From Callorhinchus milii (lineage: Eukaryota), in contig NW_024704742.1 of assembly GCF_018977255.1 (NCBI RefSeq), positions 116,066,001 to 116,130,000 of the forward strand: a stretch of 64,000 nucleotides of DNA, written 5' to 3'. A program made the position numbers and the translations under genes. Shown here piece after piece: positions 200-60,376 of the stretch. The notes beneath the pieces are model-generated. The model was given only the letters and a program-made list of their open reading frames with translations. It was not told the DNA's origin and searched no databases. The number at the start of each line of letters is the position of its first letter. Position 1 is the first letter of the stretch.

Positions 200-550
200 A
201 AAGGTCCAACATTTGCCTTGCAAACGAGGGGACCTGAGTTCGATTCCCAGTCAGGGTGAAATCTTAGGTACGTTTCCTTACTCCACATCCCTCTTTACCT
301 AGCAGTAAGTAGGAACCTGTTTGTTAGTTGATTGACGGATCGCTTTTCTGGGGGTAATCCTTCACAAAAACTTTTAAAAATTGGGTCACTCAATTCACAA
401 CTATTTGTTGGACACTTGTGCGTAATTGGCTGCTGCATTTCACCCACAAAATATAGAGTCAATTTATTTTACAGGATATTCTGCGAAGCACTTTGAGATG
501 TCTCAAAAATGTGAAAAGGCGCTATGTCAAATGCAAGGATCATTATTAAT
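200..550 (+). mobile_element. SINE variant with an extra central segment
   Basis: Same head remnant (GGACCTGAGTTCGATTCCC...TTTCCTTACTCCACA) and tail, plus CTCTTTACCTAGCAGTAAGTAGGAACCTG, which is absent from the young copies. Confidence 0.75.
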
Positions 551-907: not shown

Positions 908-3900
908 CTATATGCAGATATTTTCATCACTCCAGTCACTGCAGTCCTGAATGTGATCTTTACAGCGACTTTTAGGAATGCAGTCGCAGTCACTGAAGAA
1001 AACTGTAGTACATTTCCAGCCAAAACAGGGAGGACACTGCAAAGCTAAATAAAAAAAATGCAATCAATTCGATTTATTGAATCCTATAATTTACAATACT
1101 TTTTTTCTTCTAATATCCAATAAAATGGTAGGAAAATGATGTTGCACCTTTGGTAGCTACTAGCAGCAACAGATGTAAATAGCAAACAAAGCTTTAAAAA
1201 ATAATGGTTACTAAAATACTGCATACATTTTTATTAATAGCTATTGTTGAGTGTGAAAGACCTGCCTCAGGAGCTGAGCAGCTGTAGGTGCTACCATTCA
1301 TTTGGAGTTCTATTTTAAACCAGTACAATTTAATGGACAGCAAAGTCACCATTCTTCACTTTTGATCCTTGATAATGGGTGTTGACCACAGCAAGCTGAG
1401 TTCAATCCTGTCTTCATCCAGTATCTACTCATGCACCTGGAGCAGGAGATGCTAGACAGTGAGTAAGAACATGGTAGATTTTCCTCACTAGCATAGCGAG
1501 CTTAGGTCAACCATGATAAATGTTGAGCTGGCTTATTCAGTACATGGGATCTCCAGCGTCTGTATGGTTCTGCTCAAGAGGCTCCAGGCCATTCATGGTC
1601 TCAATAATCAATTTAAGAGTATGAACAATGTCTAAGGCAGCATATGGTTGCAAGATTGCAGATAAAAAAGGGGATGCTTAAAATGCTTCAGGAAATATTT
1701 AATTGCAGATGTTTAATGCAAATGTTTGTCTATAATTATAATAGTAATAAATAATGCTTGCATTTTATATAATGCCTTAGCATGGTACAGCTAATTTACA
1801 TACCTCAATGTCCCACAAACAGCCATGAAGTGAATGACCAATTTTATTTGGGGGATTATCAGCCAGAAACTCCCTTTTCTTTTCAAATAATGCTATGGGA
1901 TCTTTAATATTCAACTGAACAGGCAAATTGGATCTTGGTTTACTGAGTCATCTGATGGATGGCAACTCCAAAAATGGAACACACCAACAATGCATGGGAG
2001 TCAGCCTCAACTATGAGCTTGAAGTACTGATGTGGGGCTTGAACCCATAACCTGTCTCAGGCAAGAGTGCTACCACCTAAATCAGGCTGATAACCTGCTT
2101 TAACATTTGATGATAAATGTTTTAATTGAACTACAGTATTTGATAATTGAATAACACAGTGAACAAACAATCCTTTAAAATGGCTATATTACCTGATTCA
2201 TCTGAACAGTCTCCACAGTCATTTTTTCCATTACATTTTTTGTCTATGTAAGTCCAGGATTTCTGGTCACTGCACAAGAAGACCAAGTTTTTAGGGAGGC
2301 TCATAGGTAGGTTGTCTGATCAGGAAAAAATCAAAACAATTTAATTTCTATAATTAACACAATTTCTATATTTTTTGTAGAAATCTCAAATGCACTTGCT
2401 GCCAAATAATTTGATTATTTTGGGTGCAAGCCTTCAATGTCCAGTGACTTGGGACATCCTTCTGACATGAAAGGCACTATATAAATGTAATTTGTTGTGG
2501 TGGTTAATATGCTCTTAGATAACAATGGGATCCATGTCACATTAAATGTAAGCAAAAGGAATTTAAGCAAGACATTTTCTTCCTCCTTTTTATTTTCCTG
2601 ATAGTCTGGTGGCTGAGCACATTGAAGCTGTGCATCTAATCATTAAGGCTGCTGAGGACAAATATGGAGCCATCAACTGGTGTCATTTGTAAATTATTTG
2701 TTAAATGAAATGCAAACATCTAAAACAGTTGATGACTAATAAAATGTCACTCTGGTGTACTCTGGAAACTCAAATTAATGAAATACATTGTTATGTCATA
2801 TAACAATAATAATCCTTGCATTTGATATAGCGCTTTTTACTATGTCTCAAAGTGCTTCACAGAATATACTGTAAAGTGAATTGACTGTATATTTGTGAGC
2901 GAAACATGGCAGCCAATTGCGCACAGCAGTGTCCCACAAACAGCGGGCATTGAAATGACCAATTTATTATTTTTTTGAGGGATTTATTATCAGGCGTGTG
3001 GAGTGAGGAAACTTGCCCAAGGTTTCGCCCTACTGGGAATCAAACCCAGGTCTCCCGCTTGCACGGTGAGTGCTCTAACCACTGAGCTACAGGGCTCCTA
3101 TGTTCCCTGTCACACACAAATGCACAAGGCATATTTCTGGTCATTGCACAAGAAAACTACTATGTTCCAAGGGAAGGATTTACATAAAGTACTCAGCAAA
3201 AGAAATTTCTGTGTTTCCATGTTGTCCATTGCATAACTGCATAAATCAAACTATTTAGTGGCTTTCCAGGAGAGAAGGAAGCTGTTTAAACAAATAGTAG
3301 TACTTAACAAGCATAGCAACCAGAAAGCATTTGTTGAAATACACAGCACCTTTCTGTAGCTGACACATTATGTTGCCAGAGTGATACACTCATTTTCCCC
3401 AGATAACAATTGCAAACCATGCACACATTTAACAATGGCCTTTTGAAATTACCTGAGGATGACTTTAACTTCTCCTGCTTTTGACTCATTGCCAGAACCC
3501 ATTAAGCATTTCCAATTCTGACGAAAGATCATACCCAAAACATTAATCTAGCTTTCACTTTCAGATGCTGATCGGTCTGCAGTGCAATTCCAACACATTC
3601 TGCTTTTGTTACAGATTTTCAGCAGTCCTGACTTTTCTTCTTTTTTAATCTGCTCAGTAACATTTTTATTCTTAGTTTCAAATATTACTACGAGTACAGT
3701 TTTAAGTATAGACCCATATACAGGGTATTCTCTTGTCACCTGAAGTAACTGATTTCTGGGTTCTTTCAAATGTGGACTGAAAAGCCTGAATAATTTACCG
3801 CGACCCTTCAACACACATCCTCATCAAATGTTGAGTTAAGAACAAGGATTTAACTCAATAAGCAATGACGTAGAACCATGATTTTCAGCACCTGCTTTTC

Positions 3901-6900
3901 TTGATGAAGCAGCTCTTACTTCCAGAGTGCAATTTTGCGCCAAAAGCATGAAAGTAGCAAATTTAGATCGGCCATGAAAGATACTGGTTATGTACTTTTA
4001 CTGGAAGATATGATTATTTAATAAAAAGTATGTGTTCTTAATGTCCAGTAAGTGAAATTCTACAAAAAATGAAGCAAATTCAAATCATCCAGTAACCTTT
4101 CAAAGGAACCCCAGATTTTTTGGTGGTCAGCCCAATATCTGACACATGTGGTAACCCATCACCATGCACTCAAACCAGACATATGTATGTCATCTTCTCA
4201 TGGAAATTTCCATGTGTCTGAAATGAAGTGTACACTCTCTCCCTGGAGGGACTCACCCTCTCTACCTAATTCAGAGAGTATAAAGTACAGGTTGACGTGA
4301 GTCATGGTTTGTAGACTCCAGAAGGTGTGTTTGGGTACGCTTGGAGTTAACCAATGAAAACCAAATATCTTGTGAATGAGAGCACTGTCTTATACATTTT
4401 TCTCTGCTTGTCTGGCTAGACCCACTGTTATGGTTTTGACTTGCAGGGTCAACAGGAGCTATGTGGGAAGAATTCCTGCTCCCAGTGATTGGTTTACCTT
4501 TCTAAGTCCTGCCAGTGAGCCAGCACAGCTGGTATGTCAGCAGCAGTGCCCTGGAGTATTGTGGACCTGCCTGGCTCAGGAACTGTACTACCAAGACTGC
4601 CACAGAGAGCTGACTCGATTCTAACATTACTTTGCCAAGCTCATCACCTTGGAGCACAGCTCATCTTTTTGCACCCCCCTCTCCCCACCCCGAGGAAAGT
4701 GCTATAGCTGTTTGCTAGTGTAAATGTAGAAACTCATGTAATCTACATACCACAGTATAGGTTTGCTTCATCCTCTCCATTACTGCAGTCCACTTTGCCG
4801 TTGCAAATCTGCGTAGACATAAGGCACGTTGTGCGATCATCACACAAGAAGCCGTTTCTGTCTGAGGTGGTTTTACATTGCCGGGTTACTGCAGCAAGAC
4901 ATAGACAGAATAAATGCCCATTGATTTGCATGCTGAGAAGCTGTCTTGTGTGAAGCTAACTATATAAATGCATGTTGTTATCATTACAGCACCAAGAGAA
5001 ACTGTGTCTTACATCACATTACATGGAGAATCATGCATTAAAGGAACTGGGTTCCCAAATACAAGGAGCAATAATTATACACAGAATAGCAGAAGCAGTG
5101 TTGAGTGCAAGGCAGCAATCAAGTCTTAAATTACATGGTCATTTGAAGAATCAAGTCTTCTAATGACATTAGAACAAAGCTCAATGGATTTTCAACTATT
5201 ATTTAAACCCAAAATAAGATTCAAAATCCTAAAAAAAATTTTTGTATATAATGTGCAATTCTTGTGTAAATTTATTGCACTGTGTTTTCTTGGGCAGACA
5301 CTAGTTCAATGTGCTCAGTGTAGTTGAAGCAGAACAATGCTCACACTGAGGGATTAATGATTGACATCAGATTGAGATAATTATTGTGGGATAACCAAAG
5401 GTAAATTAATGGGAAGCAACACAGTTAGAATACAACAGATCACTATTGCTCCATTATCTGAATACTGATTATATTCCCTTGGCAACATACGAGTCAGACA
5501 CAGACAACACAATCCAGCCTGCACCTCAGTGGTGATAACCAGGTGGAGTTACATGAGCCCAGGTTAGTTAGGGAATCAGAACCCAGCCTCACCCATAAAA
5601 ATATTGATCTTTCCTGCTCCAATTCTCTTGGGTTATACTATCCTAAAGCCATGTTATCATGCTGGAGTTCAGTTCCACAGCTACTCTGGTACATTGCATA
5701 AATAGCTGGAATTGTGAACTAACAAAATATTTTTTTATTTCACATACAAACATCTTAAGCAGCAGAGAAAATATTTAAAAAATCGAACAAGAAATTGTTA
5801 GGTAGGTAGTATAAAGTGGCCACAGAGTGGTTTTGTACTTGATTCTCTGAGGAATGGGGAGCCAGTGAAGCCAGGCAAGCATGGGGGTGATTGGTTCGCG
5901 GAGCCTTGGGAGAGGACACGAGCTGCAGTGTTTGGAATAATCCACAGCTTGCAGAGGGAAGAGTTGGGAAGTACAGTTAGCAAGCAGTTGGCGCAGTCAA
6001 GGCAGGATGTGTTGAAAGCATGGATAAAGTTCTTGGCAGCCTGCGGTGAGAGGCAATGGCGGAGGCAGGCAATGTTGCGGAGGTGGGGAAAGGCGGAACG
6101 TGTCACAACACAAATGTGGAGCTTGAAGGATAGCCGAGGGTCGAACAGGACACCGAGGTTCCATATTTGCTCAGGAATTCCTAGGAACTCAATGATCTTG
6201 ATGTGACAATACATATTTTAAACTTGTTTAATACATTTATATCTTATTATTGCATACTTAGCTGTTTGGGTGGTATCCCAAATATAATCCCACAAGTTAT
6301 AGCAGCTGCAATTGCCCCAAAAATGAACAGGAGGAGAATTTCGATTAAAATGCATCTTCTGGTACAGCAGCTCCTGGAGTCTAATACAAATATTAGTTAT
6401 TCATCTTTTAAACACTCGAGATCTGTGCACTTTAAATATTCAGAAATCAAAATAAGGTCTGTGTGAAAGATAATTGCAACTCAAATTATACCTGTCGTTC
6501 TTAATTGCTAAATGAATGTTATATGCACAAACAAAGCATTCAGTTAATTTCACTACACAAAATTAATACTGAAAGAGGAAGTCATGCCATCAGGATCCCA
6601 TTTAAAGGTCAGCTACAATGAATTATGTCTAATTGCTGCATCCTTTTAATGTGTATTTTCTTTTTTTTGTTTAGCCAAAAACATAGATGAGATAATGGGA
6701 GGAGAGTGGTTGACCTGTGTTGATGTATAGTGTGAGCTGACAACATCAGTAATCACATCCACTGGGTACGGGCACTAACCCAGGAGGCAGCAGCAAGCTT
6801 TCAACTGAGGGTTCATTAAAGAAAACATATTCATGTTATAATTATGCAGATTTTTTTCTGGACACATTGTATATTATATAGAATATATATTTATATATGG

Positions 6901-8293
6901 GAATAGAGGGGTATAAGTGAGGGGAATAGGAGGGGTGACAGCTTTGTTGAGTGGTAACAGGGCAGACTGGTTGGGTCTAATTTCCTGTTTTGGTATTGTA
7001 TCACTCTGTGCAACTATGTATCTATATAGGTGATGTCATCTGCAGGATTGGGGTCTATTTCCATATAAACAAGGATGACATTCTGCCTCTAACATCAACT
7101 CCAGGACCACTGCTGTTCTAATAATGTTCTAATTCCGGTCAGATGTCAACAATGTGCTATTACTGATGAATTCTCACATCACAGTGATAATTCTCACATC
7201 ACACTGTTAATTCTAATATTGGTGACAATTCTCAAATCTCCAATGTGTGTTAAAATAAACCAATCTTCCTCAGTTGTGAAACAATTAACAAAATATTTTC
7301 TACCTTCCTGTTTATTGTGAGTTAAAGTGACTTGTGATCCGAAAAGAGAATCGTTATCAGGATTCACCACGTCCTATAAGGGAAGATAAACAATTCAGCA
7401 CGTAGAAACAATAGCTTCTCCAATTAAATTTTAAGTGGCCTACCTGCTCTATATCTCACTGTCCAGCAATCCCCAAAATAAAATTGGTCATTCGCTTCAT
7501 AGCTGTTTGTGGAACATTGCAACATGCAAATTCGCTGCCATATTGTCCCACAAAACACACGATCACTACACTTTATAGTATATTCTATGAAGCACTTTGG
7601 GATCATCCTCCAGATGTAAAAAAGACATTAAACCAAAGTAAGGCTTATTATTATAAAATTTTGCCTAAAAACCTACCTCTTTGACTGTACCTAAAGTCTT
7701 CTCCCCTTCCTTCCTCCCTCCCCTTTCTACCTCGCTTGGTGTCCAATCCGGGCTCTTTGTGGAGTCTCCAAGCTATTATACATGAAGGTGCTATGTAAAT
7801 GCAAATTGTTGTTTCTTGTCTCTGAGGCAGTGTCAGCAGTCTCTGGTTCATGACCTACTAGGTCCTATTTACCCATTTAGTTCCAATGAGCCAAGCTGGC
7901 TGGTCTAATTTCAGGACTACAACAGAGCCATCTGGCTCAGAAATCAGAGACGATTGAGACTGCCTCAGATAGTGGGCTTGATTCCGACAAACCATTGCCA
8001 AGAACCAGCTCAGCTCCAAGGAGGCCCCACTAATAATAATAATCTTATTATTCCCACTTAGGAAGATAGTCACCAGTCACTGAAGTTAATTTCTAGAATC
8101 TGGTAATACTCCAAAAATTCTAACGATAATAGTTTGTTACGTACATAAATTCTAATAAAAAATTTGCAAAAACACTGAATGAGAAATTACTTTATCCTTC
8201 ACAAAAAATTGCAATTCTAAAACATTATGTAAATACATTGAACTGAAGGTACTTTACCTTGGGTCTTGATGGATAGACTCTACTTGAACTCAT
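908..8293 (-). CDS. LDLRAD1: LDLRAD1-like type II membrane protein with three LDL-receptor class A (LDLa)-like modules, 208 aa, 6 coding exons
   Basis: Hand-assembled minus-strand exons 8293-8258, 7373-7304, 6380-6258, 4888-4751, 2315-2193, 1044-908. All junctions are GT-AG, phases 0,1,1,1,1, total 627 nt ending in TAG. Protein: MSSSRVYPSRPK/DVVNPDNDSLFGSQVTLTHNKQE/DSRSCCTRRCILIEILLLFIFGAIAAAITCGIIFGIPPKQL/ITRQCKTTSDRNGFLCDDRTTCLMSTQICNGKVDCSNGEDEANLYC/DNLPMSLPKNLVFLCSDQKSWTYIDKKCNGKNDCGDCSDES/ALQCPPCFGWKCTTVFFSDCDCIPKSRCKDHIQDCSDWSDENICI*. Motifs CCxRR+TM, GFLC, NxCGDCSDE, CPPC and CDCIP...CSDWSDE match LDLRAD1 as I recall it. Orthologue versus paralogue is unresolved. Confidence 0.88.
1740..2090 (-). 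mobile_element. Older Deu-type SINE (reverse)
   Basis: Reverse complement of Deu motifs (TGCTATGGGATCTTTAA) and head (GGGCTTGAACCCATAACC...GAGTGCTACCAC). Confidence 0.65.
2804..3098 (-). mobile_element. Older full-length copy of the same SINE family
   Basis: GGAAACTTGCCCAAGGTTTCGCCC...GTGCTCTAACCACTGAGCTACAGGGCTCC head and AATAATCCTTGCATTTGATATAGCGC tail on plus. Confidence 0.85.
4114..4645 (-). mobile_element. 3' UTR/terminal copy of the 50530-51851 element
   Basis: Reverse complement is colinear with 51320-51851, including terminal CATGTGTCAGA..GGCTGACCACCAAAAAA. Confidence 0.65.
7821..7969. repeat. ~150-bp element bounded by ~29-bp imperfect inverted repeats (MITE-like)
   Basis: TCTGAGGCAGTGTCAGCAGTCTCTGGTTC (7821-7849) versus the reverse complement of 7940-7969, TCTGAGGCAGTCTCAATCGTCTCTGATTTC. 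Confidence 0.7.
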
Positions 8294-8600
8294 TTCTCAT
8301 GAATACGAATAGAGATGATCAGAAGTGTGGGAACAGATAACTGATGAGAAAATATAACACAAAATTCTTGATGAAAGTACTTCAGATGTGGGGAAGTTGG
8401 TGAGTTACTTGGTGACCTGCGACTCCAGCTGATTCCTTTGGAAAAATGTTGCTTTCATTCATCACCCAGCAACGAAGAAACTCAACAGATCACTTACCTG
8501 TACATTGTGATTAAAGACAAACACTGCCCCTCCTCCAGGAAGCTGAGGGTTAAACATTTCCAAATGATGTTTCTGCAATATATACATCTCTAACCTGAGA
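8294..8600 (-). other. Probable 5' UTR of the LDLRAD1-like gene: non-coding exon ending at 8498, intron 8497-8341, exon resuming at 8340
   Basis: Minus strand has a consensus donor CAG|GTAAGT at 8498/8497 and a pyrimidine-rich acceptor TTTTCTCATCAG| at 8341/8340, 47 nt upstream of the ATG. TSS not determined. Confidence 0.45.
8404..8473. promoter_or_regulatory. Two RFX X-box motifs upstream of the LDLRAD1-like ATG
   Basis: 8404-8416 GTTACTTGGTGAC (reverse GTCACC-A-AGTAAC) fits GTNRCC-N(0-3)-RGYAAC exactly. 8461-8473 ATCACC-C-AGCAAC has one mismatch. Confidence 0.55.
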
Positions 8601-10877: not shown

Positions 10878-11437
10878 GCCTGTCTCTAATAATCAAAGCT
10901 TTTTCATCTTACAGGTAAGGTGACAATTTGGAAAACAGGTAAAATTCTAATCAAGTTCATGCCTAAACTAAAGTTTAACCAGCTAAAATTGCATAGCTTG
11001 CCATTGAGAGCACTGTCTGCTGAGTAAAAGTCTCCAAACAAGAATCCACTTGGACTTAGTAAAACTCCTCCATTTATGTACAGTATACAGATCCCACTCC
11101 AATAAGAAGTACTGCAAGGAACTCCTCTACTATCCGTTATCCCTTCTTTACTCCTAGCAAATATTGCTGTTAATTAATACGGTTCAATACCTCAAGAAAT
11201 AAGATACAATCACTGCATCTAATAAAACTGAATGGTCCATTTCAATAATGATGGTATAAAACACCATCCAATAAGTTGTACCATGAAGCAAGTCTTCAGC
11301 CATCTACAGAAATGTTCTTTTGTTGCCATCCCATGCAAATCCACACAAAGCGTAGAGCACTCTCTGAGATGACAGATAATGTATGAAAGAATTCAAGTCA
11401 TTTACTTTTCCATGACGCAGATATCAGGATCAGTCAT

Positions 11438-13092
11438 TCACTCCTTAATATTCAACAACAACTTCAGTAAATGGGCCTCAATAACCTGCTGAACTAAAAA
11501 AGAAAATTCTGAATTAGATTTCCTATTTAAAAAAAAGGGTTAGTTTGGTAATCAAAGTGTAATCAATGAACAAAGGCAAACAATTTTTGTTGGTCAGCCA
11601 GGAGCCTGGTGCATACAGAAACCCACCCCTAAACTTTTCAAAAGTAATGACAGTTACCAAAATAATAATAATCATTGCATTTGATACAGCATCTTATCAC
11701 AATAGAATACATTAGAATATACTGCACAGAAACAGGCCATTTGGCCCAGTCATGCTGCACATGAGCCTCCTCTTGCCCTAAGTCTTCAAGCATAACCTTA
11801 TTTTCCTTTCTCCCTCATATACCTTAAATACATCTATGCTATTTGCCTCAACAACTCCTTGTGGTAGCATGTTCCACATTCCCAATACTCTGTGTGAAGA
11901 AATTTCTTTTAACTTCCCTATTTGATCTATTTGTCACTACTTTATATTGATGGCCCCTGGTTTTGGTCTCCCCACAAGTGGAAACATCTTCCCTATGTCT
12001 ACCCTATCAAAACCTTTCATCATTTTAAAGACCTCTATCAGGTCAACCTTTACCCTCCTCTTTTCAAGAGAAAAGAGTCCAAACATGTTCAGCCTTTCAG
12101 GTATATCATGTCGTTGATACGTCTTAAAATGCTGTGTGTTTCATATGTGCATGCAACCTATGCATGAAAATCTCCCTGTCTGAAATGGAATGTGCACTTT
12201 CTCCCTAGATGGACGCACTCTGCTTTCCTAATTCTGGAAAGTATTAGTTACAGGTTGGTAAGAGCTAAGGCTTGGAGACCCCAGATTGTGGTTGAGGTAC
12301 TGCTATAGTTTAACTAGCTAAAACTGCATAGCTTCCAATTGAAAGCACTGTCTGACAAGCTTCCTACTGCTTTTCCAGTGAGCAACATGCTATCCATTAG
12401 GCTTGCAGGATTAACAGGAGCTGAGTGGGAGGAATCCCTGTTCCCAGTGACAAGCCCGTCCCCCAAGTCCTGTTGATGAGCCAGGCTGGCTGGTCTGGAG
12501 TTCTGAGGACCTGCCTTTGCACAGAAACTGGGCCACTAAGATGTCAGAGGGTTGACTCAATTCCACCATTCTGTTGCCAAGCTGCTCAGCTCCAAGCAAA
12601 CCCCACTTTCCTCCTTCCCCAAGTGGACAGTTACTGGTTGGTCATTTAATATCAGACAAGCACAGTTTTGAGCCCTCATTAGGTGAGCTCTCCAACAGGA
12701 GCGCTCTGAGACACTACCCTGCATGGAGGGCGCTATATAAGTGCAAGTTGTTGTTGTGAATAGCAGATACTCCCTGTGAGTTTACTATATACTACATGAC
12801 AATAAATAGATGCAAAACAGCACAGCAAATTTAACAAATAATTAAAAATATTACATGATTGAAGTTTTATTTTGAGTATATTCCATTTAGAAAAAATAAT
12901 TTTCATGCTCTTAGGCAAGTTGAATTCAACACTTACCATTTTTAAAACCTAAGTTTACAGCCATATCCATCGCATTGAATCCTGAATCGGTTTCAGCAGT
13001 TGGGTCAGCACCATATTCTGCAGAAACAGGAGCAATAAACTATAGAATCATTAGGTAGTTTTATTCCTAATGAATTATCAGCACATTTTCAG

Positions 13093-13134
<42 letters not shown>

Positions 13135-16100
13135 GGAAGAGTGAGAGTAGATGTGGAGGAAAGGACAGATATAGATGGAGATTATAATGAAGTAAGATTC
13201 AGAAGGGTTCAATTTCCATCATAAAGTACTAGACCTAAGATTTGGAATTCTTTTTCAATTACCTGAGACCTAATGTTTCTCATGGACTTATCCTTAAGAC
13301 CACTGTTTTAAAATGTAAGCTTGTGAACGATTTTGCAGAATTCTTCAATTCAATTTTATAGTGGAGCCCAATTATAATGTGGTGGGCTCACATGCAGAAA
13401 CCCATCACTATACTTAAGAGTATCCAAAGCAAACTGAGAGTTCTATGCATCCCATCTACACATACAATACAAAATTACATTTGTAAAGCACATTTCATGT
13501 TGGGTGGACGGCCCACGTTGCTGGAAATTCCAAGGATGTTGATTGGAATGGAATGTGCACTCACTTCCAGGACAGTGACAGGCAAAAGTTGGTGTCCACT
13601 ACAACTCTGGACTGAGGTCTCAGTACTTCTTAAGAGTGTCAATGTCAACAACAAATTACATTTGTAAAGCGCCTTTCATGTCAGGAGGATGTCCCAAGGC
13701 ACTGGACAGTCAAGGATCTGCACACGAGTTGGTGATTGGGATCAAGAGGGGTGGAGGGTGGGGTGGGTAGGGATAGTAGGGCGACAGAAGGCACGGTCTT
13801 AGAGGAGGGTCTTGAGACGGGTCTTGAAGCAGGCAAGGGAGGGGGCAGACGATGGGACTGTGGGTGGAGGTGAGGATGGAGGCAGAGAGGTAATGTTGGG
13901 TATCAACTGCATACATGCGGAAGTTGACCCCATGTCTGCGGATGATGTCACCAAGAGGGAGCATGTAAATGTTGAAAAGCAGAGGGCCAAGGACAGAGCC
14001 CTGAGGGATGGCACACGTGACGGTGCAGGGGCTGGAGGAGAAGCGATTAGTGGGGACAAAGTGGAATCAATGATCAGATCTCTCACCTTTGACCCATTTG
14101 TAGACATGAGCCACTCAAGAAGAGCCTCAATATAGTTGGAATCCACAAAATCCTCACCTATAATGAGGCACGACAGGTGGTTTCACAGTGCATGCATACA
14201 GCTGGCCTGGAAGTTAGTTTTTTAATTAAGTGTGGGGAAGTAAAATGGCTGCCTTCCAGGACATCAGATCTTTGTTGATATCACTAACTGTGCGCTGGGT
14301 GCGTGTGGTGCAGTTGGTGCGTGTGGTGTGCAGGAAGTGATTGTGGTAACAATCTAATGACCGAGAAATCAGCTATTTTAACATGAGAGCCGGTCAGCAC
14401 ATTAAAAATATTTTATATTTATCTGGTATTATTTTTCTTTAATCTCTGCTCATGTCCTTCTGTCCTGCTTCACCAATTACATGCTACCTCATAGGTAGGG
14501 CTGCAGGTTTGGCATGGCATTGCTTGTCAAAAAACATGGAGCAGTTACAGTAAATTTAGTGAACGTCACTGGTTTACGAGGAAATGTTGGGAGAAGTCAT
14601 CGGTATGGAAATTCAACTTTCCCTCTTCATCCTCCCAATTTCCAATGTCTAAATCGGAATGTGAAAAACCTTTATCTTAGAGTGCGGAAAGCAGCTGGGC
14701 TGTATGCAAGTGTCCGTGAGAACAGTTTGAATTTCCCACATTAACCTTGAGAGAGGCTGTCGCATGGCCTAACACAGCCCAGCCACTTCCCTGCTCAATT
14801 GAAGTAGGGAAGCAGCTGGGCTGTGTGAGCGCTTGTGCCAACCTCGCAAAAACAGTTTGAATTTCCTGCAATAATGTTGAGACAGGCCACCACTCGCTCA
14901 AGGTTAATTCGGGAAATATATGGTTTTGTCACGGACATTATCCGTAACATTTTTTCTGGCATGCCAAATCTGCAGTCCTCATAGTGTCTACAAAATAGCC
15001 ATTACATCTTAAAATAATATTAACTGAGACATTTCCAATATAAGTTGCTATATGAGATGCATGTATTACAATCATTGTATTAGCTCACCCAGCAGGGTCT
15101 CCACACACTTTACATGATTCCCATGTACACCATACAGCAAAGGGGTCCCTCCATTCTGTAAGGAAAAGAAAGTAGCCATAGATATTCTAAATATGATAGA
15201 GAATATTAAATACACCTGGAGTATTGGAGGAAGGTCTAAAATGGATTGTTTCTAACAGATTCCTTAAATAAGAAATCCGAGTTGCGCAAATAGGAACTCC
15301 TTCCGGTCAGTGGAAGTACAGTATATCACACTGACCTGCACAACTCTGCTGCAAAGTGATGTGCCTCCAAGCAGAGTTCCTGTAGGGCGAAGGGAAAGGG
15401 AAGGAAAATCTAATACAATTCCTTACTAAGGAAATATCAAAAATGAGATCCTGATATTACTTACCCAGTCATACTCATTTACATCACATCCATGGTTGAG
15501 TAGCATTTTGACAATGTCTGCATAACCCTTACTGCTGGCCAGTGACAGTGCACTCTCTCTTCCATTTGCTAAAAGATGCGGATCACCTCCCTTTCAAAAG
15601 AACACAAATCTGCAGGTTCATTTCTAAGATACCAACAAGAGAAACTTGAACTGGTTTATAAATCAAGGCAAAACCACAAAATGTAACCATTCCACAATAT
15701 AGAAAGGAATGACAAGAAAATAGCAAGTTGATGTTCGGCAAGAAGGGAATCCCTCTAATAATAAATTCCCTCTACATACCGATTATGCAGGGTATATTTT
15801 GTTCAATATTGTTTTTACACAAGTCTCAGGCTCCTCCCTATCCCCATTAAGCAATTATGTTTTAACCCACCCACAATTAGTGGGGAAAAAAGGCATTTAA
15901 CCAAACATACTCTGTAATTAGAATACTATGAAGTAAATGCAAGTCATCCTGTTGTATCATTTTGACTGAAACGGATATGTGCAACTTTCCACTGGGAAGT
16001 TATGATATATCAGTAAACATTTCTAAATTTATAATAATCCTTGCATTTGATATAGCACCTTATCATGTCATTGAGATGTCATAAAGCCCTTCACAGAATA

Positions 16101-19100
16101 TACTGTAAAGTGGACTGAATGTATTTTGTGGGCAAAATGCAGCAGCCAATTGCATACAGCAATTAATGTGACTCAAATTGATGTCACTCATTCCACACAA
16201 AGAATTCACACCACCAATGAAAAAGAATAGTGATGGACGGGTGGAATTGTTGGATCAGTGGTCTTGCAAGGTTAGTTTCATTGCATTTAAGTGCGTACAG
16301 AGCAGAGTGAAAGGTGGTTTCAAAGCAAGAGGCTGCTCTAGCAGACATTCATTGGATTAGTAATGAGCAGGTCAACTACCTACCCTCTCAAGTTTTCACA
16401 CAGAATACTTAGGATATGGAATAACCTGCCTGGAGCAGTGTTTGAGGCAGAATCCAATTTAGCTTTCCAAAGAGAACCAGATAGATATCTCAAAAGGAGT
16501 GAACTACAAGGGTATGGGGGGAAAGGCAGGTGAATGGGCCTGTAAGAATTGCTCTTTTCAAAAGTCAGCACAGACCAAAGGCCAAATGGCCTTCTTCTGT
16601 GCTATACATTTCTATAGTTCTTTGGTTCTGGTAGAGATTGATGCACAATGCACAAAAACCATAAAGAAAATCAAGACTTTTTAATGTTTATATATTAAAA
16701 AAAGTACTTCTTTGGAAGCCAGCCGTCCAGACAGACACCAATACCTGGTAGCGCCGAGCATGATCCACAATATTTTACTTTCAGAACAATAGCATATTTA
16801 TTCTAATGTAATATTGTAGAGTGTTTACCCTGGACCAAAACTTTCAGGTTCAAACAACCTTGAGCTGAGGAAAATAACTAAGGTAATATTCTGTTCCCCC
16901 AACATCAACACAGAATCCGCAGGTTTAGTCACAGTTGTCACATTAGTTCTCATTTGTCGCCTCCATTTCATAGAGCTTCTGAACAGGTCACTGTCATACG
17001 ACTTCAATGTAAGAAAATTTAGAAGCTTAATACATCTCCACTGTCTATTGTACCCATTTCAAATAGAGAAACTGTGTGAAACTTCTTCAATTTGCTTGTT
17101 TCTTTCATTTACTCAGTTCCAGTCATTTGATACTGAAGGAATTAATTCAATTAAATAGTTAAGAGCATAAAGTTCATAAACCTTACATTCTGTAGCAGAA
17201 ACTCCACCACTGCAATCTGTCCATGAGCTGCTGCCCACATCAGTGGAGTAAAGCCTTGCTCATCTTGCATATTTATCAGATTATCTAGAAATGTAATAAA
17301 ACAGAGATCACTCAGATCTAAGACTAGGTAATAGTTCTCCTCGATTCCCGTGGAGTTCAACAATTTCTGCACCTTATTTCAATAAATGTACTCTGCAGCA
17401 AGTCACACATTAACATTACTACTGGATTCCTAATTAGAAGGTGTCAGAATAACAGCGCTTTAAACTTCAGTTAACAACTCACCTTGTTCTATACGGCTTG
17501 CCAAAAAAAGCAGCTCTCCTTGCGCTGCCAACTGATGTACAGAGAGTGCTGTGAAACACAGATAACAGTAACAAGTGTAAATTACTCAACCAAGCAGGAG
17601 ATAGTTCAGGAACAGAACAAGTTGTGGAGTCCTGTAGCTCAGTGGTTAGAGCACTCGCTTTGCAAGCGAGAGACCCGAGTTCAATTCCAGGCAGGGCGAA
17701 ACCTTGGGCAAGTTTCCTTACTCCACACACCTAATAATAATCCCTCCAAAAACCAAAAACAATAATAAATTGGTCATTTTCAATCTATGACTGTTTGTGG
17801 GACATTGCTGTGCGCAATTGACTGCCGCGTTCGCCCACAAATATACAGTCAATTCACTTTACAGTGTGTTCTGTGAAGCGCTTTGGGACGTCCTCCCGAC
17901 GTGAAAAGCGCTATATCAAAATGCAAGGATTATTATTATTAAATACATTACCACAAAGGGGAAAGGTAGGGGATCCAAACCTCCTTGGATGACTAAGGAA
18001 ATTGGGATTAAAATACAACAGAAAAAGGAGGCTTATGATAAATGTCAGGTCTAAAATACAGAAGGTAATCAAATAGAATATAGAAAGTACAGAGGAGAAC
18101 TGAAAAAGCAAATAAGAGAGGCAAAGAGATTGCATGAGAAAAATTAGTGGGTAACATAAAAGGGAACCCTAAGGTATTTTATAAGCATATAAAGAATAAA
18201 AGGTTAGTCAAAGGTAGAGAGGGGCCAATTAGTGACCAAAGAGGAAATCTTCGTGTGAATGCAGAGGGCATGGCTGAATGAGTACTTTGCATCTGTCTTC
18301 ACAAAAGAAGCCAGTGCCACAGTATCAAAAGAGAGGGCAGAGAAATTGGATAGGATAAGAATAAACAGAAAGGAGATACTAAAAGGTTGATGCTGCTCAA
18401 GATAGATAAGTCACCCGGTCCAGACAAGATGCATCCTAGGTTATTGAGGGAAGTAAGGATGGAAACAGTGGAGGCTCTGGCCACAATCTTGGTAGTGCCA
18501 GAGGACTGGAGGGTTGCAAATATTACTCTCCTGTACAGAAAGGGGCAGAAGGATAATCCCGGGAACTACAGCCTAATGTCAGCAGTGGGGAAACTTCCAG
18601 AGACTATAATCCGGGACAAAAATTAATTTTCACTTAGAAAAATATGGGTTAATAAACAACAGCCAACTTAGATTCATTAAAGGCAAATCATGTCTTACAA
18701 ACCTGCTAAGAGTTTTTTTGATGAAGTAACGGAAAGGGTGGTTGAAGATAGTACAGTTGATGTAGTTTATATGGATTTTCAAAAGGCGTTTGATAAAGTG
18801 CCACATAAGTGACTTGTAAGCAAAATAGAAGCCTAGGGTATTAAAGGACAGCATGGATACAGAACAACAAGATTTCATTTATAGAGCGTCTTTCATGTCG
18901 GGAGGACGTCCCAAGGCGCTAGACAGTTGGGTCGGGAAACAGAAAGCAGAGAGTGGCAGTGAACGGTTGTTTTTAATGACTGGAGGGAAGTATGCAGTGG
19001 TGTCCCCCAGGGGTCGGTATTGGGAACCTTGCTCCCTTTGATCTATATAAATGACCTGGACTTGGGTACAGGGAGTGCAATTTCCAAGTTTGCAGGTGAT

Positions 19101-22100
19101 ACTAAGCTAAGAAGAGTAGTAAACGGTGAGGAAGATAGTAGCAGACTGCAAAAGGACATACACAGACTGGTAAAGTGGGCAGACATGTGGCAGATGAAGT
19201 TTAATGTGGAGAAATGCGAAGTGATGCATTTTGGGAGGAAGAATGAGCAGAGGCAATATAAGCTGATGGTACAATCTTAAAGGGGGTAAAGGAACAGAGA
19301 GACCTGGGGGTTGTATAAGTAAATATTTGAAGGTGGCAGGACTGGTAGATAAAGCTGTTTAAATAAAGCATACGGGATACTAGGCTTCATAAATAGGGGC
19401 ATAGAATACAAAAGTCAGGAAGTTATGATGAACTTTTATAAAACACCGGTTAGGCCTCAGCGAGAGTACTGGGTTCAGTTCTGGGCACCACCACCGCGCT
19501 TTAGGAGGGATGTCAAGGCATTGGAGAGGATGCAAAGGGGATTTACTAGGATGGTACCAGGAATGAGGGACTTCAGTTATGAGGAGAGGATAGAGAAGCG
19601 AGGATTATTCTCCTATGAGCTGAGAAGGTTAAGAGGAGACTTAACAGAAGTTTTCAAAATTATGGGGGGGATTCGATAGGGTGAACAAGGAGAAACTATT
19701 TCCAATGGCGGGTGGGTTGGTAACCCGAGGACACAGACTTAAAATAGTTGTTAAGAGACAGAGGGGAGGTGAGGAGACATTTTTTCACACAGCGAGTTGT
19801 TCGGATCTGGAATGCATTGCCTGAAAGGGTGGTGGAAGCCAATTTGATAACAACTTTTAAGAGAGAAGCAGATAATTATTTGGGGGGGACAAGTTTGCAA
19901 GGGTATTGGGAGAACATGGGGGAGTGGGATTGATTTGGATAGCTCTTTTCAAAGAAAAGTATAATTCTGTGCTGTATAATTCTATGATTCTAATGTAACT
20001 TATTCTATGCCGTGATAATGCAGTGCTGAATGCAAGAAAACATTATCTTAAGAACAGGTCTTTCTTTAGTAGGATGATGATGATACCAGTTCGGATACTA
20101 TACTACTGTAACTAGTGGCTCTCTCTTCTCCCTCCTAAAAGTTATTTAATTCACCTCTACATTTCTCTCCTATCCCAGCTGAAACCCTTATTCACACCTT
20201 TGTCACGTCCCGGCTGGACTATTCCAATGCCCCCCTCGCTCGTGTGCACCCCTGCTCCACCATACACAAAATACAATTAATCCCAAACACTGCCGCCCAG
20301 GTACTCACCTGCACAAAATTTCATACCCCAATCATACCAGTGCTTGCCAGCCTCCACTGGCTCCCAATTACCGAATGGGTCAATTTTAAGATCCTCTCAC
20401 TCCTTTTCAAATCCCTTCATGCCTACACACCTCCCTAACTATCCAATCTGCTTACCCCCTACTCCACCACCCACTACCTCTGCTCGGTGAGCTCCGGCCT
20501 CCTGTTAGTTCCTAGTCTCCTCCACCATCGGTGGCTGCAGCTTCAGCTACTATGCCCCGAAACGGTGGAACTCTCTCCCTCAATCTCTCCGACTTGATCC
20601 CACCCACCCCACTTTCAAATCCCACCTAAAGACCTTCCTTTTCGATCATGCTTATAACAGCAACAACTTGCATTTATAGAGTGCCCTTTTTCCAGTGTAG
20701 CGTCCCAGAGCACTTTGATCACATGGAGACAAATTACTATTCAATCACGCAATGGCACGACAATAAATTAGATTCAGCATCTCACTGATGAGCACTGAGA
20801 CATGCTCTAATCCAATAGATTCTTCATTCTACAAATGAACAGTCACCAATGTTGATCTGTAAAGTGAACACTAGTTATACTGATTGCACTACATTCTGGC
20901 TCTTTATAAGACAACATTAGCCAAGAACATTTCACTACAAAATAATGCTTGAAATAATAAAATGAAAATAATAATCCTTGTATTTGACATAGTGCTGGAG
21001 GATATCTCAAAGCATTGAACATGATTTACTGTAAAGTGTAGTGACTGTGTATTTTGTAGGCAAAACGCCAGCCAATTTGCACACAGAAATGTCCCACAAA
21101 CAGCCATGAAATGAATGACAAATTTTATCTGTGGGATTATTTGCTAGGATATCAGAAGAAAACTCCCTTCTCTTTTCAAGTAGTGCCATGGGATCTTCAA
21201 TTTCAACCTAAACAGGCAGACCAGACAGAGCTCGGTTTAACATCTCATCCGAAGGATGAAAAAATAAAATATTGTTCAATAATGTAAACCTCAATCAGTT
21301 TATTTTATGCAGCATGAAAATTATCTACCAAAGTGCTGAGTGGCAGGAAACAGATTAATGTCACCTTACTTCATAGGATGAGTTCTATCTCCAGGCTGTT
21401 CTGTGAAGGATAGTGGCCAATAGAGGGCAGTGGTTTCTCCAGAAAAGTGGGGGAGTGGATGAGAGAAAGGAAGGGCAGGTCAGCACAGTGCATTAGTGTG
21501 TACATGTTGGCAGCTGACTCAATGGCACTGGCACTAACTTATGTACCTCCACTCCCGCCAGGAGACTGGTATGTGGCCAAGAAAGACCTTATAGTGAGGA
21601 AGAATTTTAAAAAATAGAAACTTAAAACATGTAGAAGAATGTCTTCCTTCTCGTCAGAAACAATTTAGCATATATAACTATCTAGTCTTCATTTAGTCAA
21701 GCAATAAACAATCTCCATTATTTTCAGTTTTCTGGGTCCATTGAATACATCCTGTACCAGATGATATCAGACTTACAGTGCAAGAGTAAAGGTGTTGCTG
21801 AGACCTCATTTCCACGATGCTTATTGGTTAGAGTGGTTGACTGCTTAACAGGTGAGAAATGTTTGGTTATAGATGGCGTGTAGACGTGTCTAACTTGAAT
21901 TCCAGGAGAAGGAGACGTGTGGATGTTGCACTCAGCTGTAATCAACAGAATATTTCTACATGACATATGACATTTATACATACAGTATTTCAGAAGCCAA
22001 TCACTATACTGCACAGGGTATGAGTTGACAGGCAAAGAGTGACAAAGCAGCAATTCAATTGAATGGTTCAGTACTTAAAAACCATATGATTGAAGCTTAA

Positions 22101-22704
22101 ATATTTTATGAGCAGAAATACTTTAAAATTAAATTGTTGCCTGATATACAAATTAAGTTTATTTTTATACTTACCTTACCAATAAAAGAACAAGACAGCA
22201 TCAGTAAAATATAGATGATTGTCATAGGTGAAAGATTAATAAGGACAGTCTAGAATTTGAAGGTACATAACATTGTATAATTATCACCAAAACATTCTAT
22301 ACACAGCAAGAACAAGAAAATAATTAAATTGATTGCAATTGGATAATAGATATGTATTATTAAGGAAATTGCTGGCAGTATTTAGCATATAAAATGCACA
22401 TATATTACTTACCTTTGAATAATACAGAAGCCACTTCTAGGTCAGAGTTTACCTGATCCTGAATGTTTTTACTGTCCTCTTCATTCAGCGACTTTACAAA
22501 TCGAGAGCACACGTTCATATCAAACCTATTGGGCAGGACAAATTTCATTCCCATGGCAACATTCTGAGAGGAACCATCTTCTTCATTTAGGTCAGTACGT
22601 GGTTCTACTTTGATGTAAGGAATTCCAGAAAAGGAAGAATTGTTGTCATTCGGATCTCCAGTTGACTGAATTTCAAAGTTTGGATTTTCAACTGAGGCCA
22701 TCAT
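11438..22704 (-). CDS. ANKRA2: Ankyrin repeat family A protein 2 (RFXANK paralogue), 314 aa, 8 coding exons
   Basis: Exons (minus) 22704-22413, 21935-21777, 17548-17483, 17284-17187, 15590-15465, 15155-15089, 13017-12937, 11493-11438. All GT-AG, 945 nt ending in TGA. Diagnostic peptides: [156 protein letters not shown]. The first coding exon probably starts at acceptor TTTCCAG|22806. Confidence 0.97.
11701..12104 (-). mobile_element. CR1 3' fragment; further CR1 3' fragments at ~16375-16620(+), 24170-24330(+), 37760-38170(-), 57190-57560(+), 61520-62090(+)
   Basis: TAGAATACATTAGAATAT terminus and GGCCATTTGGCCC hairpin. Reverse strand carries CR1 ORF2 C-terminal motifs (DLIEVFK-like, WNxLP-like). 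Confidence 0.75.
13096..13128. repeat. (GT)n microsatellite; others: (TA)n(CA)n 25602-25630, (GT/GA)n 32905-33095, (TA)n 47459-47481, (GT)n 60833-60853
   Basis: Direct reading. Confidence 0.95.
13645..14055 (-). mobile_element. Internally deleted L2 fragment
   Basis: [26 protein letters not shown] joined to FKTRLKTLL and the L2 tail. Confidence 0.8.
14731..14917. repeat. Nested inverted repeats in ANKRA2 intron (outer ~23-bp IR, inner 55-nt hairpin)
   Basis: Outer: ATTTCCCACATTAACCTTGAGAGAG versus CTCGCTCAAGGTTAATTCGGGAAAT. Inner hairpin at 14772-14826. Confidence 0.75.
17626..17940 (+). mobile_element. Full-length young tRNA(Ala)-derived SINE with Deu-like body and L2-type 3' tail
   Basis: Head GTCCTGTAGCTCAGTGGTTAGAGCACTCGCTTTGCAAGCGAGAGACCCGAGTTCAATTCC with A/B boxes and TGC anticodon loop. 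Body CCTTGGGCAAGTTTCCTTACTCCACAC...TGTTTGTGGGACATTGCTGTGCGCAATTG. Tail GGGACGTCCTCCCGACGTGAAAAGCGCTATATCAAAATGCAAGG(ATT)n. Near-identical copies elsewhere in the window. Confidence 0.9.
17948..19992 (+). mobile_element. 5'-truncated CR1-clade LINE (decayed ORF2 RT region plus 3' UTR)
   Basis: Frameshifted peptides [100 protein letters not shown]. Ends in ATTCTATGATTCTA, a CR1-type terminal repeat. Confidence 0.92.
20968..21260 (-). mobile_element. Deu-type SINE fragment (reverse)
   Basis: AATAATCCTTGTATTTGACATAG tail, GTCCCACAAACAGCCATG, TAGTGCCATGGGATCTT. Confidence 0.7.
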
Positions 22705-42600: not shown

Positions 42601-43045
42601 GCCTGGAGGCCAGGTGTTTAATGTGGGGTGTTGAGCTTGTTGCCACCGGCCACTCTTAGTTGCTGACTCTGTGCAATATTGCTAGGGATCTGGGAGCAGT
42701 TTGGCTGCAATTGGTATGTGGGAGGCCAGTAATTTATAATTATGATATTTCTAGGTAATTGTATCCTATAAATTGCTTTAACGCATTCATGCAATTTTTT
42801 CTCTCGTTTTAGATATTTATAGATCTGTGGTTGGCGAGTCATCGGTAGTTGACAATCAATTTCTGAGGCTGCAGGACTTAATAGGGAGAGAAATTGACTA
42901 TCAGGAAGAACTACTTGAGGTTCTCGGAATGATGGATACACTCTTTGCTACTATAACAGCCAAAAAGGAAGCTGTTGTCCTTGGAAATCAGAACTGTGCC
43001 ATTGCTATTGGAAATAAGATGGAAGAGTCGATGGTAGTCGCCTAA
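27699..43045 (+). CDS. UTP15: U3 snoRNA-associated protein 15 homolog (SSU processome t-UTP; WD40 repeats plus UTP15 C-terminal domain), 524 aa, 12 coding exons
   Basis: Exons 27699-27788, 28499-28591, 29406-29590, 29770-29948, 31848-31973, 33513-33648, 35820-35904, 36828-36980, 38418-38519, 40002-40135, 41009-41067, 42813-43045. All GT-AG, 1575 nt ending in TAA. Peptides: [10 protein letters not shown]...[138 protein letters not shown]. Confidence 0.97.
27819..28125. repeat. G-rich minisatellite (GGGGGCGAGCGAGGGTGGT..., 22-27-bp variable unit) at the start of UTP15 intron 2
   Basis: CGAGGGTGGT recurs at 27819, 27841, 27868, ~27894 and onward. Confidence 0.9.
30060..31720 (+). mobile_element. 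Highly decayed older CR1, interrupted by 30185-30870
   Basis: [14 protein letters not shown] before the insertion. AAATTTGCAGATACACCAAGTTGGGG (KFADxTKLG-like) and CTGATCAGACCACAATTGGA (LIRPQL) after it. Confidence 0.6.
30185..30870 (-). mobile_element. CR1 3' fragment, same subfamily as 17948-19992, nested in an older CR1
   Basis: [25 protein letters not shown]...TRGHRLK, with CATAGAATCATA terminus at 30185. Confidence 0.9.
32571..32904 (-). mobile_element. Full-length copy of the same SINE (reverse)
   Basis: Reverse complement of 24482-24803, with (AAT)n at 32571-32596. Confidence 0.9.
33955..35781 (+). mobile_element. Young L2-clade LINE (APE fragment, internal deletion, RT and 3' tail) in UTP15 intron 7
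   Basis: APE motifs [24 protein letters not shown] motifs [70 protein letters not shown]. Tail GGGACGTCCTCCCGACGTGAAAGGCACTCTATAAATGCAATC(TTG)n. Confidence 0.95.
41313..41765 (+). mobile_element. Older Deu-type SINE with a different tRNA-like head and longer Deu domain
   Basis: Head GCTTGGCTCACTGGTAGCACTCTCGCCTCTGAGTCAGAAGATTGTGGGTTC. Deu-like GGTGGACGTTAAAGATCTCGTGGCACCATTCGAAAAGAG...GTGTCCTGGCCAATA. Same (ATT)n tail. Confidence 0.75.

Positions 43046-60345: not shown

Positions 60346-60376
<31 letters not shown>

What the first reader, a model, noticed from the sequence alone, without database searches (positions are those of the whole stretch)
908..8293. Intact LDLRAD1-like gene directly downstream of ANKRA2, possibly an ohnologue absent from mammals
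Seen: a complete 6-exon, 208-aa ORF with clean splice sites that the ORF track almost entirely misses. Established (from memory): human has BTF3-ANKRA2-UTP15-ARHGEF28 on 5q13 with no LDLRAD gene there, while LDLRAD1 lies on 1p32, the region that also carries BTF3L4. Inference: this may be a whole-genome-duplication sister of LDLRAD1 retained in this lineage (BTF3/BTF3L4 paralogon) rather than the 1:1 orthologue, i.e. an uncharacterised vertebrate gene.
Basis: partly seen in the sequence, partly recalled or inferred. Interest (0 to 1): 0.75.

Follow-up and report, generated by a model that had tools for sequence, protein, structure and literature searches.

The report
Ancient sister gene of LDLRAD1
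This is a real, already annotated elephant-shark gene for a small membrane protein: an unnamed ancient duplicate of LDLRAD1 that probably dates from an early vertebrate genome doubling and, contrary to the first guess, survives in mice, bats and marsupials.

Summary
The six-exon, 208-aa gene is real. Its translation is identical to RefSeq XP_007897997.1, 'LDLRAD1-like' of Callorhinchus milii. It lies 3.1 kb downstream of ANKRA2.

It is not the LDLRAD1 orthologue. C. milii has a second family gene (XP_007907159.2, on another contig) that groups with human LDLRAD1. The window gene belongs to a separate clade (support 100/100) that, like the LDLRAD1 clade, contains both sharks and bony vertebrates. 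The duplication therefore predates jawed vertebrates. Accession-order mapping puts the two reedfish copies on the FOXD1 and FOXD2 chromosomes, which are published 1R paralogues, so an ohnologue origin is likely (~0.8).

'Absent from mammals' is wrong: the clade includes mouse Gm21976, other rodents, bats and marsupials. Primates gave only fragmentary models; human absence was not tested.

The protein is a type II membrane protein with three LDLa-type modules. It keeps calcium-site aspartates that LDLRAD1 has mostly lost. An N-terminal RVxP motif and an X-box-like site hint at a ciliary role (~0.3). Splicing in RNA remains untested.

The parts
8258..8293 (-). Coding exon 1 (aa 1-12): start codon and the RVxP-type motif at residues 5-8
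   Evidence: motif counts
7304..7373 (-). Coding exon 2 (aa 13-35): poorly conserved cytoplasmic tail
   Evidence: low pLDDT over residues 12-39
6258..6380 (-). Coding exon 3 (aa 36-76): Cys/Arg cluster and the single transmembrane helix; symmetrical phase 1-1
   Evidence: hydropathy peak 2.8 starting at residue 45; helix 42-70 in the model
4751..4888 (-). Coding exon 4 (aa 77-122): LDLa module 1 with six Cys
   Evidence: PF00057 at 86-119
2193..2315 (-). Coding exon 5 (aa 123-163): atypical LDLa module 2, lacking Cys1/Cys3, with invariant W143 and an extra C159
908..1044 (-). Coding exon 6 (aa 164-208 and stop): LDLRAD1_C module
   Evidence: PF25241 at 169-205
463..468 (-). Only AATAAA within 907 bases downstream of the stop; candidate polyadenylation signal
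   Evidence: use not shown
8404..8416 (.). RFX X-box-like palindrome 111 bases upstream of the start codon
   Evidence: consensus recalled; site noticed by eye before the test
11438..22701 (-). ANKRA2 coding span: upstream neighbour on the same strand
27699..43045 (+). UTP15 coding span (start read by eye), head-to-head with ANKRA2

Best explanation
The gene is the elephant-shark member of an unnamed vertebrate subfamily (clade B, containing mouse Gm21976) that is the ancient paralogue of LDLRAD1 (clade A). SHOWN: both genes coexist in sharks, bichirs, amphibians, marsupials and rodents, so the duplication predates the shark/bony-fish split. INFERRED: it arose in the first vertebrate genome duplication (1R), leaving B in the FOXD1-BTF3-ANKRA2-UTP15 block and A in the FOXD2/PLPP3/RAB3B block. 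How it works (inferred from anatomy): a type II single-pass membrane protein with a short cytoplasmic N-tail, a Cys/Arg cluster next to the membrane (likely palmitoylated), an uncleaved signal anchor, and three disulfide-bonded, calcium-stabilised LDLa-type modules outside the cell. It has no catalytic domain, no NPxY and no canonical Trp for lipoprotein-type ligands. It most likely acts as an accessory or adaptor subunit that binds a protein partner at a specialised membrane. My single best guess for that membrane is the cilium or apical surface of ciliated or flagellated cells (about 0.3; not tested).
For: (1) A second C. milii gene, XP_007907159.2, lies on a 69.3-Mb contig against 139.2 Mb for the window gene. 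(2) The A/B split has support 100/100 (43 hand-picked rows) and 100/99 with lampreys and human added (38 rows). (3) A shark-only clade is rejected, AU p=3.8e-10 (22 rows). (4) Twelve named species carry both clades; in 11 of 11 pairs with contig lengths given, the lengths differ. (5) PMC12284397 (section 7 read) assigns chicken 8/30 and Z/28 to the two 1R lineages of CLGL. In its reedfish table, clade-A XP_028667066 falls inside the chr10 accession block (FOXD2 028666402 to OSBPL9 028668280). Clade-B XP_051785521 falls between two chr7 accessions (051785437 and 051786133); chr7 carries FOXD1. Petromyzon XP_032821832 falls inside the CLGL chr35 block. (6) The calcium-site Asp before Cys5 is present in all three modules in 41 of 58 B, 7 of 7 lamprey and 2 of 169 A sequences. 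(7) Cilia hints: [RKQ][VI]xP in the first 14 residues of 30 of 40 B and 4 of 4 lamprey proteins, against 0 of 1227 positions in the rest of the B tails; the motif is described for PC1/PC2 in PMC3172256 (passages). An X-box-like site lies upstream (0.3% of 3000 shuffles of the 500-bp region). Mouse Ldlrad1 marks mature ciliated cells (PMC7182432 passage).
Against: No invertebrate orthologue was found, so the tree is unrooted. Lamprey is about equally similar to A (43.8%) and B (45.4%), and at least 2 of the 7 states it shares with B are canonical LDLa Asp residues, hence possibly ancestral. No copy on a third or fourth paralogous chromosome was seen. Against the ciliary guess: Xenopus ldlrad1 was not significantly induced by Multicilin at 3, 6 or 9 h (padj 1, 1, 0.74; supplement rows of PMC5245798, 12 of 17 files searched). 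The published ciliated-cell expression concerns clade A, where strict RVxP occurs in 0 of 113. The window-wide X-box test is weak (9 of 100 shuffles give a match), and the pattern was chosen after seeing the site. PMC3930517 (abstract) finds Arf4, the proposed VxPx reader, not strictly required for ciliary delivery. The counts include isoforms and related species and are not independent.
Confidence: 0.78

Rival explanations
1. An ancient small-scale (segmental or transposition) duplicate made before the jawed-vertebrate split, whose position in a paralogous block is coincidental.
For: The tree dates the duplication only to before the shark/bony split. Only two gnathostome copies were seen. No shared immediate neighbours were demonstrated, and the BTF3L4 link is recalled.
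Against: The reedfish copies map to the two published 1R-paralogous chromosomes, and the lamprey gene maps to a CLGL chromosome. Identities lamprey-A, lamprey-B and A-B are all about 44-45%, which places the split near the cyclostome divergence.
Confidence: 0.14
2. An ohnologue from the second (jawed-vertebrate) duplication, with lamprey as outgroup to both copies.
For: Lamprey attaches on the branch between A and B in the unrooted tree, and non-reversible rooting was uninformative.
Against: The FOXD1-type and FOXD2-type chromosomes are described as a 1R pair; the 2R partners are chicken 28 and 30. A single surviving lamprey copy does not date the duplication.
Confidence: 0.05
3. The window gene is the true LDLRAD1 orthologue, translocated beside ANKRA2.
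For: It has the same domain architecture and similar length as human LDLRAD1.
Against: A second C. milii gene groups with human LDLRAD1, while the window gene groups with mouse XP_006517862.1 rather than mouse Ldlrad1. Global identity is 49.8% to the former and 37.5% to the latter.
Confidence: 0.01
4. Functional rival: a non-ciliary uptake or adhesion receptor that works like the CD320/LDLR-type LDLa receptors, with the N-terminal motif serving as a generic sorting signal.
For: The best fold and sequence matches are LDLa clusters of VLDLR, LRP2 and CD320, all weak (TM about 0.2). The calcium-site residues are intact in clade B.
Against: The ligand-stacking Trp position is Q103 and K148 in modules 1 and 2 and is variable across the family. 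The topology is type II and the tail has no NPxY.
Confidence: 0.3

Closest known systems
C. milii LDLRAD1-like, RefSeq XP_007897997.1
   Same: Same 208-aa sequence.
   Different: Nothing; the record is a computational model whose name does not say it is a distinct paralogue.
Mouse Gm21976 / XP_006517862.1
   Same: Same clade; 48% identity over the whole length; RVxP motif and calcium-site Asp residues kept; lies on a 120,883,175-bp contig (mouse chr13, which carries Btf3/Ankra2/Utp15; both facts recalled).
   Different: The RefSeq model has a 42-aa N-terminal extension. No paper in the library holds the term Gm21976. Adjacency to Ankra2 was not read directly.
LDLRAD1 (human Q5T700; C. milii XP_007907159.2)
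   Same: TM + PF00057 + PF25241 architecture, Cys pattern and invariant W143; 41-46% global identity.
   Different: Separate clade. Clade A has a longer loop in module 3, Tyr/Phe at 182, Leu at 190, mostly His at 197, and mostly lacks the Asp at 110.
Lamprey LDLRAD1 (XP_078723869.1, XP_032821832.1)
   Same: Same architecture; shares the B state at 7 of 8 A/B-diagnostic columns.
   Different: Sits outside gnathostome clade B (97/93); orthology to B versus outgroup status is unresolved.
LDLa modules of VLDLR, LRP2, CD320 and TMPRSS2
   Same: LDLa-type cysteine and acidic motif.
   Different: No beta-propeller, EGF or protease domain; module 2 lacks Cys1/Cys3; no canonical ligand Trp; no solved structure of any LDLRAD1-family protein was found.

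Membership tests
LDLRAD1 family | PF25241 LDLRAD1_C and PF00057 above gathering cut-offs | tested here: met
   59.5 vs 29.2 and 36.5 vs 24.1 bits
LDLRAD1 family | Single N-proximal transmembrane helix without a cleavable signal peptide | tested here: met
   Hydropathy and helix 42-70; the orientation is inferred from flanking charge, not shown
LDLRAD1 1:1 orthologues (clade A) | Groups with human/mouse LDLRAD1 to the exclusion of other paralogues | tested here: not met
   HMM scores 334 (B) vs 226 (A), with the window protein itself part of the B model
Clade B (Gm21976-like) | Monophyly with mouse XP_006517862.1 across sharks, bichirs, amphibians and mammals | tested here: met
   100/100; 97/93 with lampreys included
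Ohnologue pair | Duplication older than crown gnathostomes | tested here: met
   Both clades hold sharks and bony vertebrates; shark-only clade rejected at p=3.8e-10
Ohnologue pair | Copies on WGD-paralogous chromosomes | tested here: inconclusive
   Favourable but indirect: accession-order mapping in reedfish and lamprey
Ohnologue pair | Single pro-orthologue in invertebrate chordates | tested here: inconclusive
   No full-length invertebrate member among the best 150 of 1597 hits (only 10 ids were looked up for names) or in the Atlas
Ohnologue pair | Paralogous flanking genes at both loci (BTF3/BTF3L4, FOXD1/FOXD2) | not testable with these tools
   No genome is held; BTF3 lies outside the window
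Canonical ligand-binding LDLa repeat | Six Cys plus Asp/Glu calcium cage | tested here: inconclusive
   Module 1 has six Cys and D110/D116/E117 with N106. Modules 2-3 keep the acidic residues but have 5+7 Cys, implying rearranged disulfides
Canonical ligand-binding LDLa repeat | Conserved Trp that stacks on the ligand Lys | tested here: not met
   Q103 and K148; variable across the family; canonical position recalled
RVxP/VxPx ciliary-targeted membrane proteins | Terminal cytoplasmic (K/R/Q)VxP motif | tested here: met
   Residues 5-8; strict RVxP in 19 of 40 B, 4 of 4 lamprey, 0 of 113 A
RVxP/VxPx ciliary-targeted membrane proteins | Motif-dependent localisation to cilia | not testable with these tools
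   Needs an experiment

The most novel reading that the evidence does not exclude
Clade B is the more ancestral-like 1R ohnologue of LDLRAD1: an RFX-driven, RVxP-targeted, calcium-binding ciliary or flagellar membrane adaptor kept for about 500 million years in sharks, bichirs, amphibians, marsupials, bats and rodents. It was lost repeatedly (perhaps in teleosts and sauropsids) and decayed in simian primates, leaving an unrecognised unitary pseudogene between human BTF3 and ANKRA2, with mouse Gm21976 as a ready knockout model.
Probability: 0.2. Interest if true: 0.55.

Novelty: new member of a known kind. Interest (0 to 1): 0.33.

Why it matters
It resolves a naming confusion: databases give 'LDLRAD1' or 'LDLRAD1-like' to two different ancient genes (for example, the Mus musculus and Amblyraja clade-B proteins are named plain LDLRAD1). 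It identifies mouse Gm21976 as a conserved vertebrate gene about as old as jawed vertebrates, not a stray prediction. It may be an ohnologue pair that human-centred catalogues cannot see if the human copy is dead. The contrast in calcium-site residues between the two copies gives a concrete, testable functional divergence in a family with no known function. The scope is modest: one more unnamed paralogue, with no new mechanism shown.

Tried and rejected
Whole-genome search: no genome is held, so no tBLASTn or flanking-gene check was possible.

RNA: no RNA holder was listed on record among 13 runs, and no reads were laid, so expression and junctions are untested; this is no evidence either way.

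Rooting: non-reversible rooting with IQ-TREE NQ.pfam timed out and left an implausible root among mammals; discarded.

Supplements: the Nakatani 2021 supplement 4 (PMC8302630) is cut at 4 million characters and uses Ensembl ids, so gene-name searches found nothing; the unseen paralogue tables could bear on the ohnologue claim. The supplement of the 2026 ohnologue database (PMC13450315) holds no gene lists, and its web database could not be consulted. Simakov 2020 (PMC7269912; passages and section 8) gave the C/L ancestry of chicken Z but no text on chicken 8.

Structure: Foldseek gave only weak LDLa matches (1 of 127 at E<=0.001). The AlphaFold model (mean pLDDT 69, pTM 0.49) returned no coordinates, so disulfide pairing was not checked.

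Literature searches finding no description of this paralogue: 'Gm21976' 0 papers; 'LDLRAD1' 53 papers, 40 listed, none about family evolution by title or abstract start; 'LDLRAD1-like' phrases 0; ANKRA2/BTF3/UTP15/LDLRAD 5 papers, none relevant by listing, one checked by passages; BTF3L4 paralogy nothing relevant by listing; LDLRAD1 with paralog/ohnolog terms, none of the 20 listed holds LDLRAD1. Subscription journals are not covered. Earlier scan findings: none.

Rejected: 'absent from mammals' and 'simple translocation'.
Full report
OBSERVATION. Six minus-strand exons (8258-8293, 7304-7373, 6258-6380, 4751-4888, 2193-2315, 908-1044) join through five GT-AG introns into one 627-nt frame of 208 residues. 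A search with exon 6 alone returned a 208-aa protein with the same sequence: RefSeq XP_007897997.1, 'LDLRAD1-like' of Callorhinchus milii, on a 139.2-Mb contig. The window is therefore elephant shark, and the gene has a public model. The neighbours are ANKRA2 (same strand, stop at 11438-11440, 3.1 kb upstream) and UTP15. BTF3 would lie beyond base 1 and was not seen, because no genome is held. Splicing was not confirmed in RNA. The exon limits are supported at protein level: database isoforms of relatives drop the transmembrane segment cleanly (Scyliorhinus P0004, reedfish P0022, Petaurus P0024).

PARALOGUE OR ORTHOLOGUE. The full-length search gave two tiers of relatives (52 hits among 91 candidates). 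A profile of the more distant tier retrieved a second C. milii gene, XP_007907159.2 on a 69.3-Mb contig, and a second Scyliorhinus gene (120 of 271 hits listed). Trees of hand-picked subsets split the family into two clades: 46 rows, 43 rows (support 100/100) and 38 rows with lampreys and human (100/99). Clade A holds human and mouse LDLRAD1, the second shark genes, bichir, sturgeon, teleosts, lungfish, coelacanth, amphibians, sauropsids, echidna and marsupials. Clade B holds the window gene, sharks and rays, bichirs, amphibians, marsupials, rodents and bats. A tree forcing all five cartilaginous-fish sequences together is rejected (AU p=3.8e-10). Twelve named species have both genes, and in 11 of 11 pairs where contig lengths are given the lengths differ.

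MAMMALS. 'Absent from mammals' fails. Mus musculus XP_006517862.1 clusters with Mus spicilegus 'Predicted gene 21976' and Mastomys. It is 48% identical to the window protein over its whole length and nests in clade B. It lies on a 120,883,175-bp contig, while mouse Ldlrad1 lies on a 156,860,686-bp contig. From memory these are chr13 (which carries Btf3, Ankra2 and Utp15) and chr4. Clade B also includes Castor, Alexandromys, Jaculus, Saccopteryx, Rhinolophus and an 11-member marsupial cluster. Primates gave only partial models: Callithrix A0A8I3WI00 (110 aa, exons 5-6) and Macaca nemestrina XP_011728491.1 (103 aa, exon 4 and the start of exon 5). This fits decay in simians but could be poor annotation. 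Of 244 proteins from the word searches and cluster look-ups, 55 scored as B and 189 as A. None of the named B records is human, sauropsid, teleost, sturgeon, lungfish or coelacanth. This is not proof of loss: the lists were truncated, and the bat cluster appeared in neither word-search listing.

OHNOLOGUE? I could not read flanking genes, so the test is indirect. PMC12284397 (abstract, section 7 and supplement parts 3-4 read) places chicken 8/30 and Z/28, and gar LG10/6 and LG2/19, in the two 1R lineages of linkage group CLGL, with FOXD2/PLPP3/RAB3B on one side and FOXD1/MIER3/PDE4D on the other. In its reedfish table, RefSeq numbers run chromosome by chromosome (one listed accession appears to be a bamboo-shark number and was ignored). 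The clade-A protein XP_028667066 falls inside the chr10 block, and its contig is 170.8 Mb, matching genes at 168 Mb. The clade-B protein XP_051785521 falls between two chr7 accessions, and its contig is 199.4 Mb, matching genes at 189 Mb; FOXD1 is at chr7:165 Mb. Petromyzon XP_032821832 falls in the block of CLGL-derived chr35. Lamprey proteins are 43.8% identical to A and 45.4% to B, with A-B at 43.6%. They share the B state at 7 of 8 diagnostic columns, at least two of which are canonical LDLa Asp residues and so may be ancestral. No invertebrate orthologue was found and rooting failed. I put a WGD origin at about 0.8, with 1R much likelier than 2R. The human gene order around BTF3 and BTF3L4 is recalled; a pig table lists BTF3, ANKRA2, UTP15 and ARHGEF28 with no LDLRAD gene among them (PMC6563113 passages).

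HOW IT WORKS. Shown from sequence: one hydrophobic helix (residues 42-70) preceded by a Cys/Arg cluster, no signal peptide, and three cysteine-rich modules, each on its own phase-1 exon (PF00057 and PF25241). Inferred: type II topology with a palmitoylated cytoplasmic N-tail and an extracellular LDLa-type ectodomain. Module 1 has six cysteines. Modules 2 and 3 have five and seven, nearly all conserved across 65 aligned sequences, which implies one disulfide between the modules. The two paralogues differ at the calcium site: the Asp before Cys5 is present in all three modules in 41 of 58 B and 7 of 7 lamprey sequences but only 2 of 169 A sequences (isoforms and relatives included, canonical positions recalled). 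The Trp that stacks on ligand lysines in LDL-receptor repeats is absent. With no enzyme domain and no NPxY, an accessory or adaptor role for a protein partner is likelier than lipoprotein uptake.

Three hints point to cilia. First, a terminal RVxP-type motif: [RKQ][VI]xP occurs in the first 14 residues of 30 of 40 B, 4 of 4 lamprey and 37 of 113 A proteins, against 0 of 1227 positions elsewhere in the B tails. It resembles the polycystin motif described in PMC3172256 (passages). Second, an X-box-like palindrome at 8404-8416 (0.3% of local shuffles, but 9 of 100 window shuffles; consensus recalled and site spotted first). PMC5838959 (passages) puts functional X-boxes within 500 bp of the start site, which is unknown here. 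Third, mouse Ldlrad1 marks mature ciliated airway cells (PMC7182432 and its preprint, passages; PMC12737339 passage). Against this: frog ldlrad1 was not induced by Multicilin at three time points, the expression data concern clade A, and Arf4 is not strictly required for ciliary delivery (PMC3930517 abstract). I give the ciliary role about 0.3.

NOVELTY AND VERDICT. The gene is annotated, and its family has a Pfam model. What I did not find in print (open-access library only; the ohnologue database PMC13450315 read in sections 6-7, its gene lists not available) is the recognition that 'LDLRAD1-like'/Gm21976 is a distinct gnathostome-wide paralogue with a different calcium-site make-up. That makes it a new member of a known kind, of moderate interest.

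Noticed in passing
window 8498 (donor) and about 8343 (acceptor, by eye), minus strand: A perfect splice-donor motif (one of only 3 in the window) and a pyrimidine-rich acceptor upstream of the start codon suggest a non-coding or uORF exon; if spliced, a 36-codon upstream frame from ATG 8557 would stop overlapping the main ATG.
   Followed up: partly
window 6258-6380: Isoforms lacking the transmembrane exon recur in both clades (shark, reedfish, sugar glider, lizard, lemurs, beaver). They would have neither anchor nor signal peptide, which is unexplained.
   Followed up: partly
window 10432-10569 and 10954-11089: Two copies of a roughly 138-bp element in the ANKRA2 3' region. Similar decayed text occurs near 4330-4390 and 12300-12360, probably a repeat family.
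   Followed up: partly
window 3735-3749: A second X-box-like match inside intron 4.
   Followed up: no
window about 24950-26400: GC/CpG-rich island holding the shared, head-to-head promoter of ANKRA2 and UTP15.
   Followed up: no
window about 58900-60620: GC-rich, low-complexity stretch ending in a donor-like site near 60615; may be the promoter and first exon of the next gene (ARHGEF28 expected from recalled synteny); no coding exon was identified.
   Followed up: no
window 17950-19990, 34000-35750, 53260-54520: Decayed LINE (CR1/L2-like) reverse-transcriptase remnants by eye, and many tRNA-derived SINE copies (for example 17620-17940, 24480-24800).
   Followed up: no
window 55230-56010: Minisatellite of G-rich units of about 20 bp.
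   Followed up: no
proteins P0354, P0398-P0404 (unnamed records): Single-exon read-through fragments of the clade-B exon 5, one seen on 218 contigs, closely matching mammalian clade B but with Lys in place of the conserved calcium-site Glu; consistent with a decaying copy in some mammal. Source not traced.
   Followed up: partly
P0002 (UniRef A0A4W3HU04): An alternative C. milii model of this same gene replaces exons 1-3 with an unrelated N-terminus, apparently drawn from intronic repeat sequence, and so lacks the membrane anchor; it looks like a mis-annotation.
   Followed up: partly
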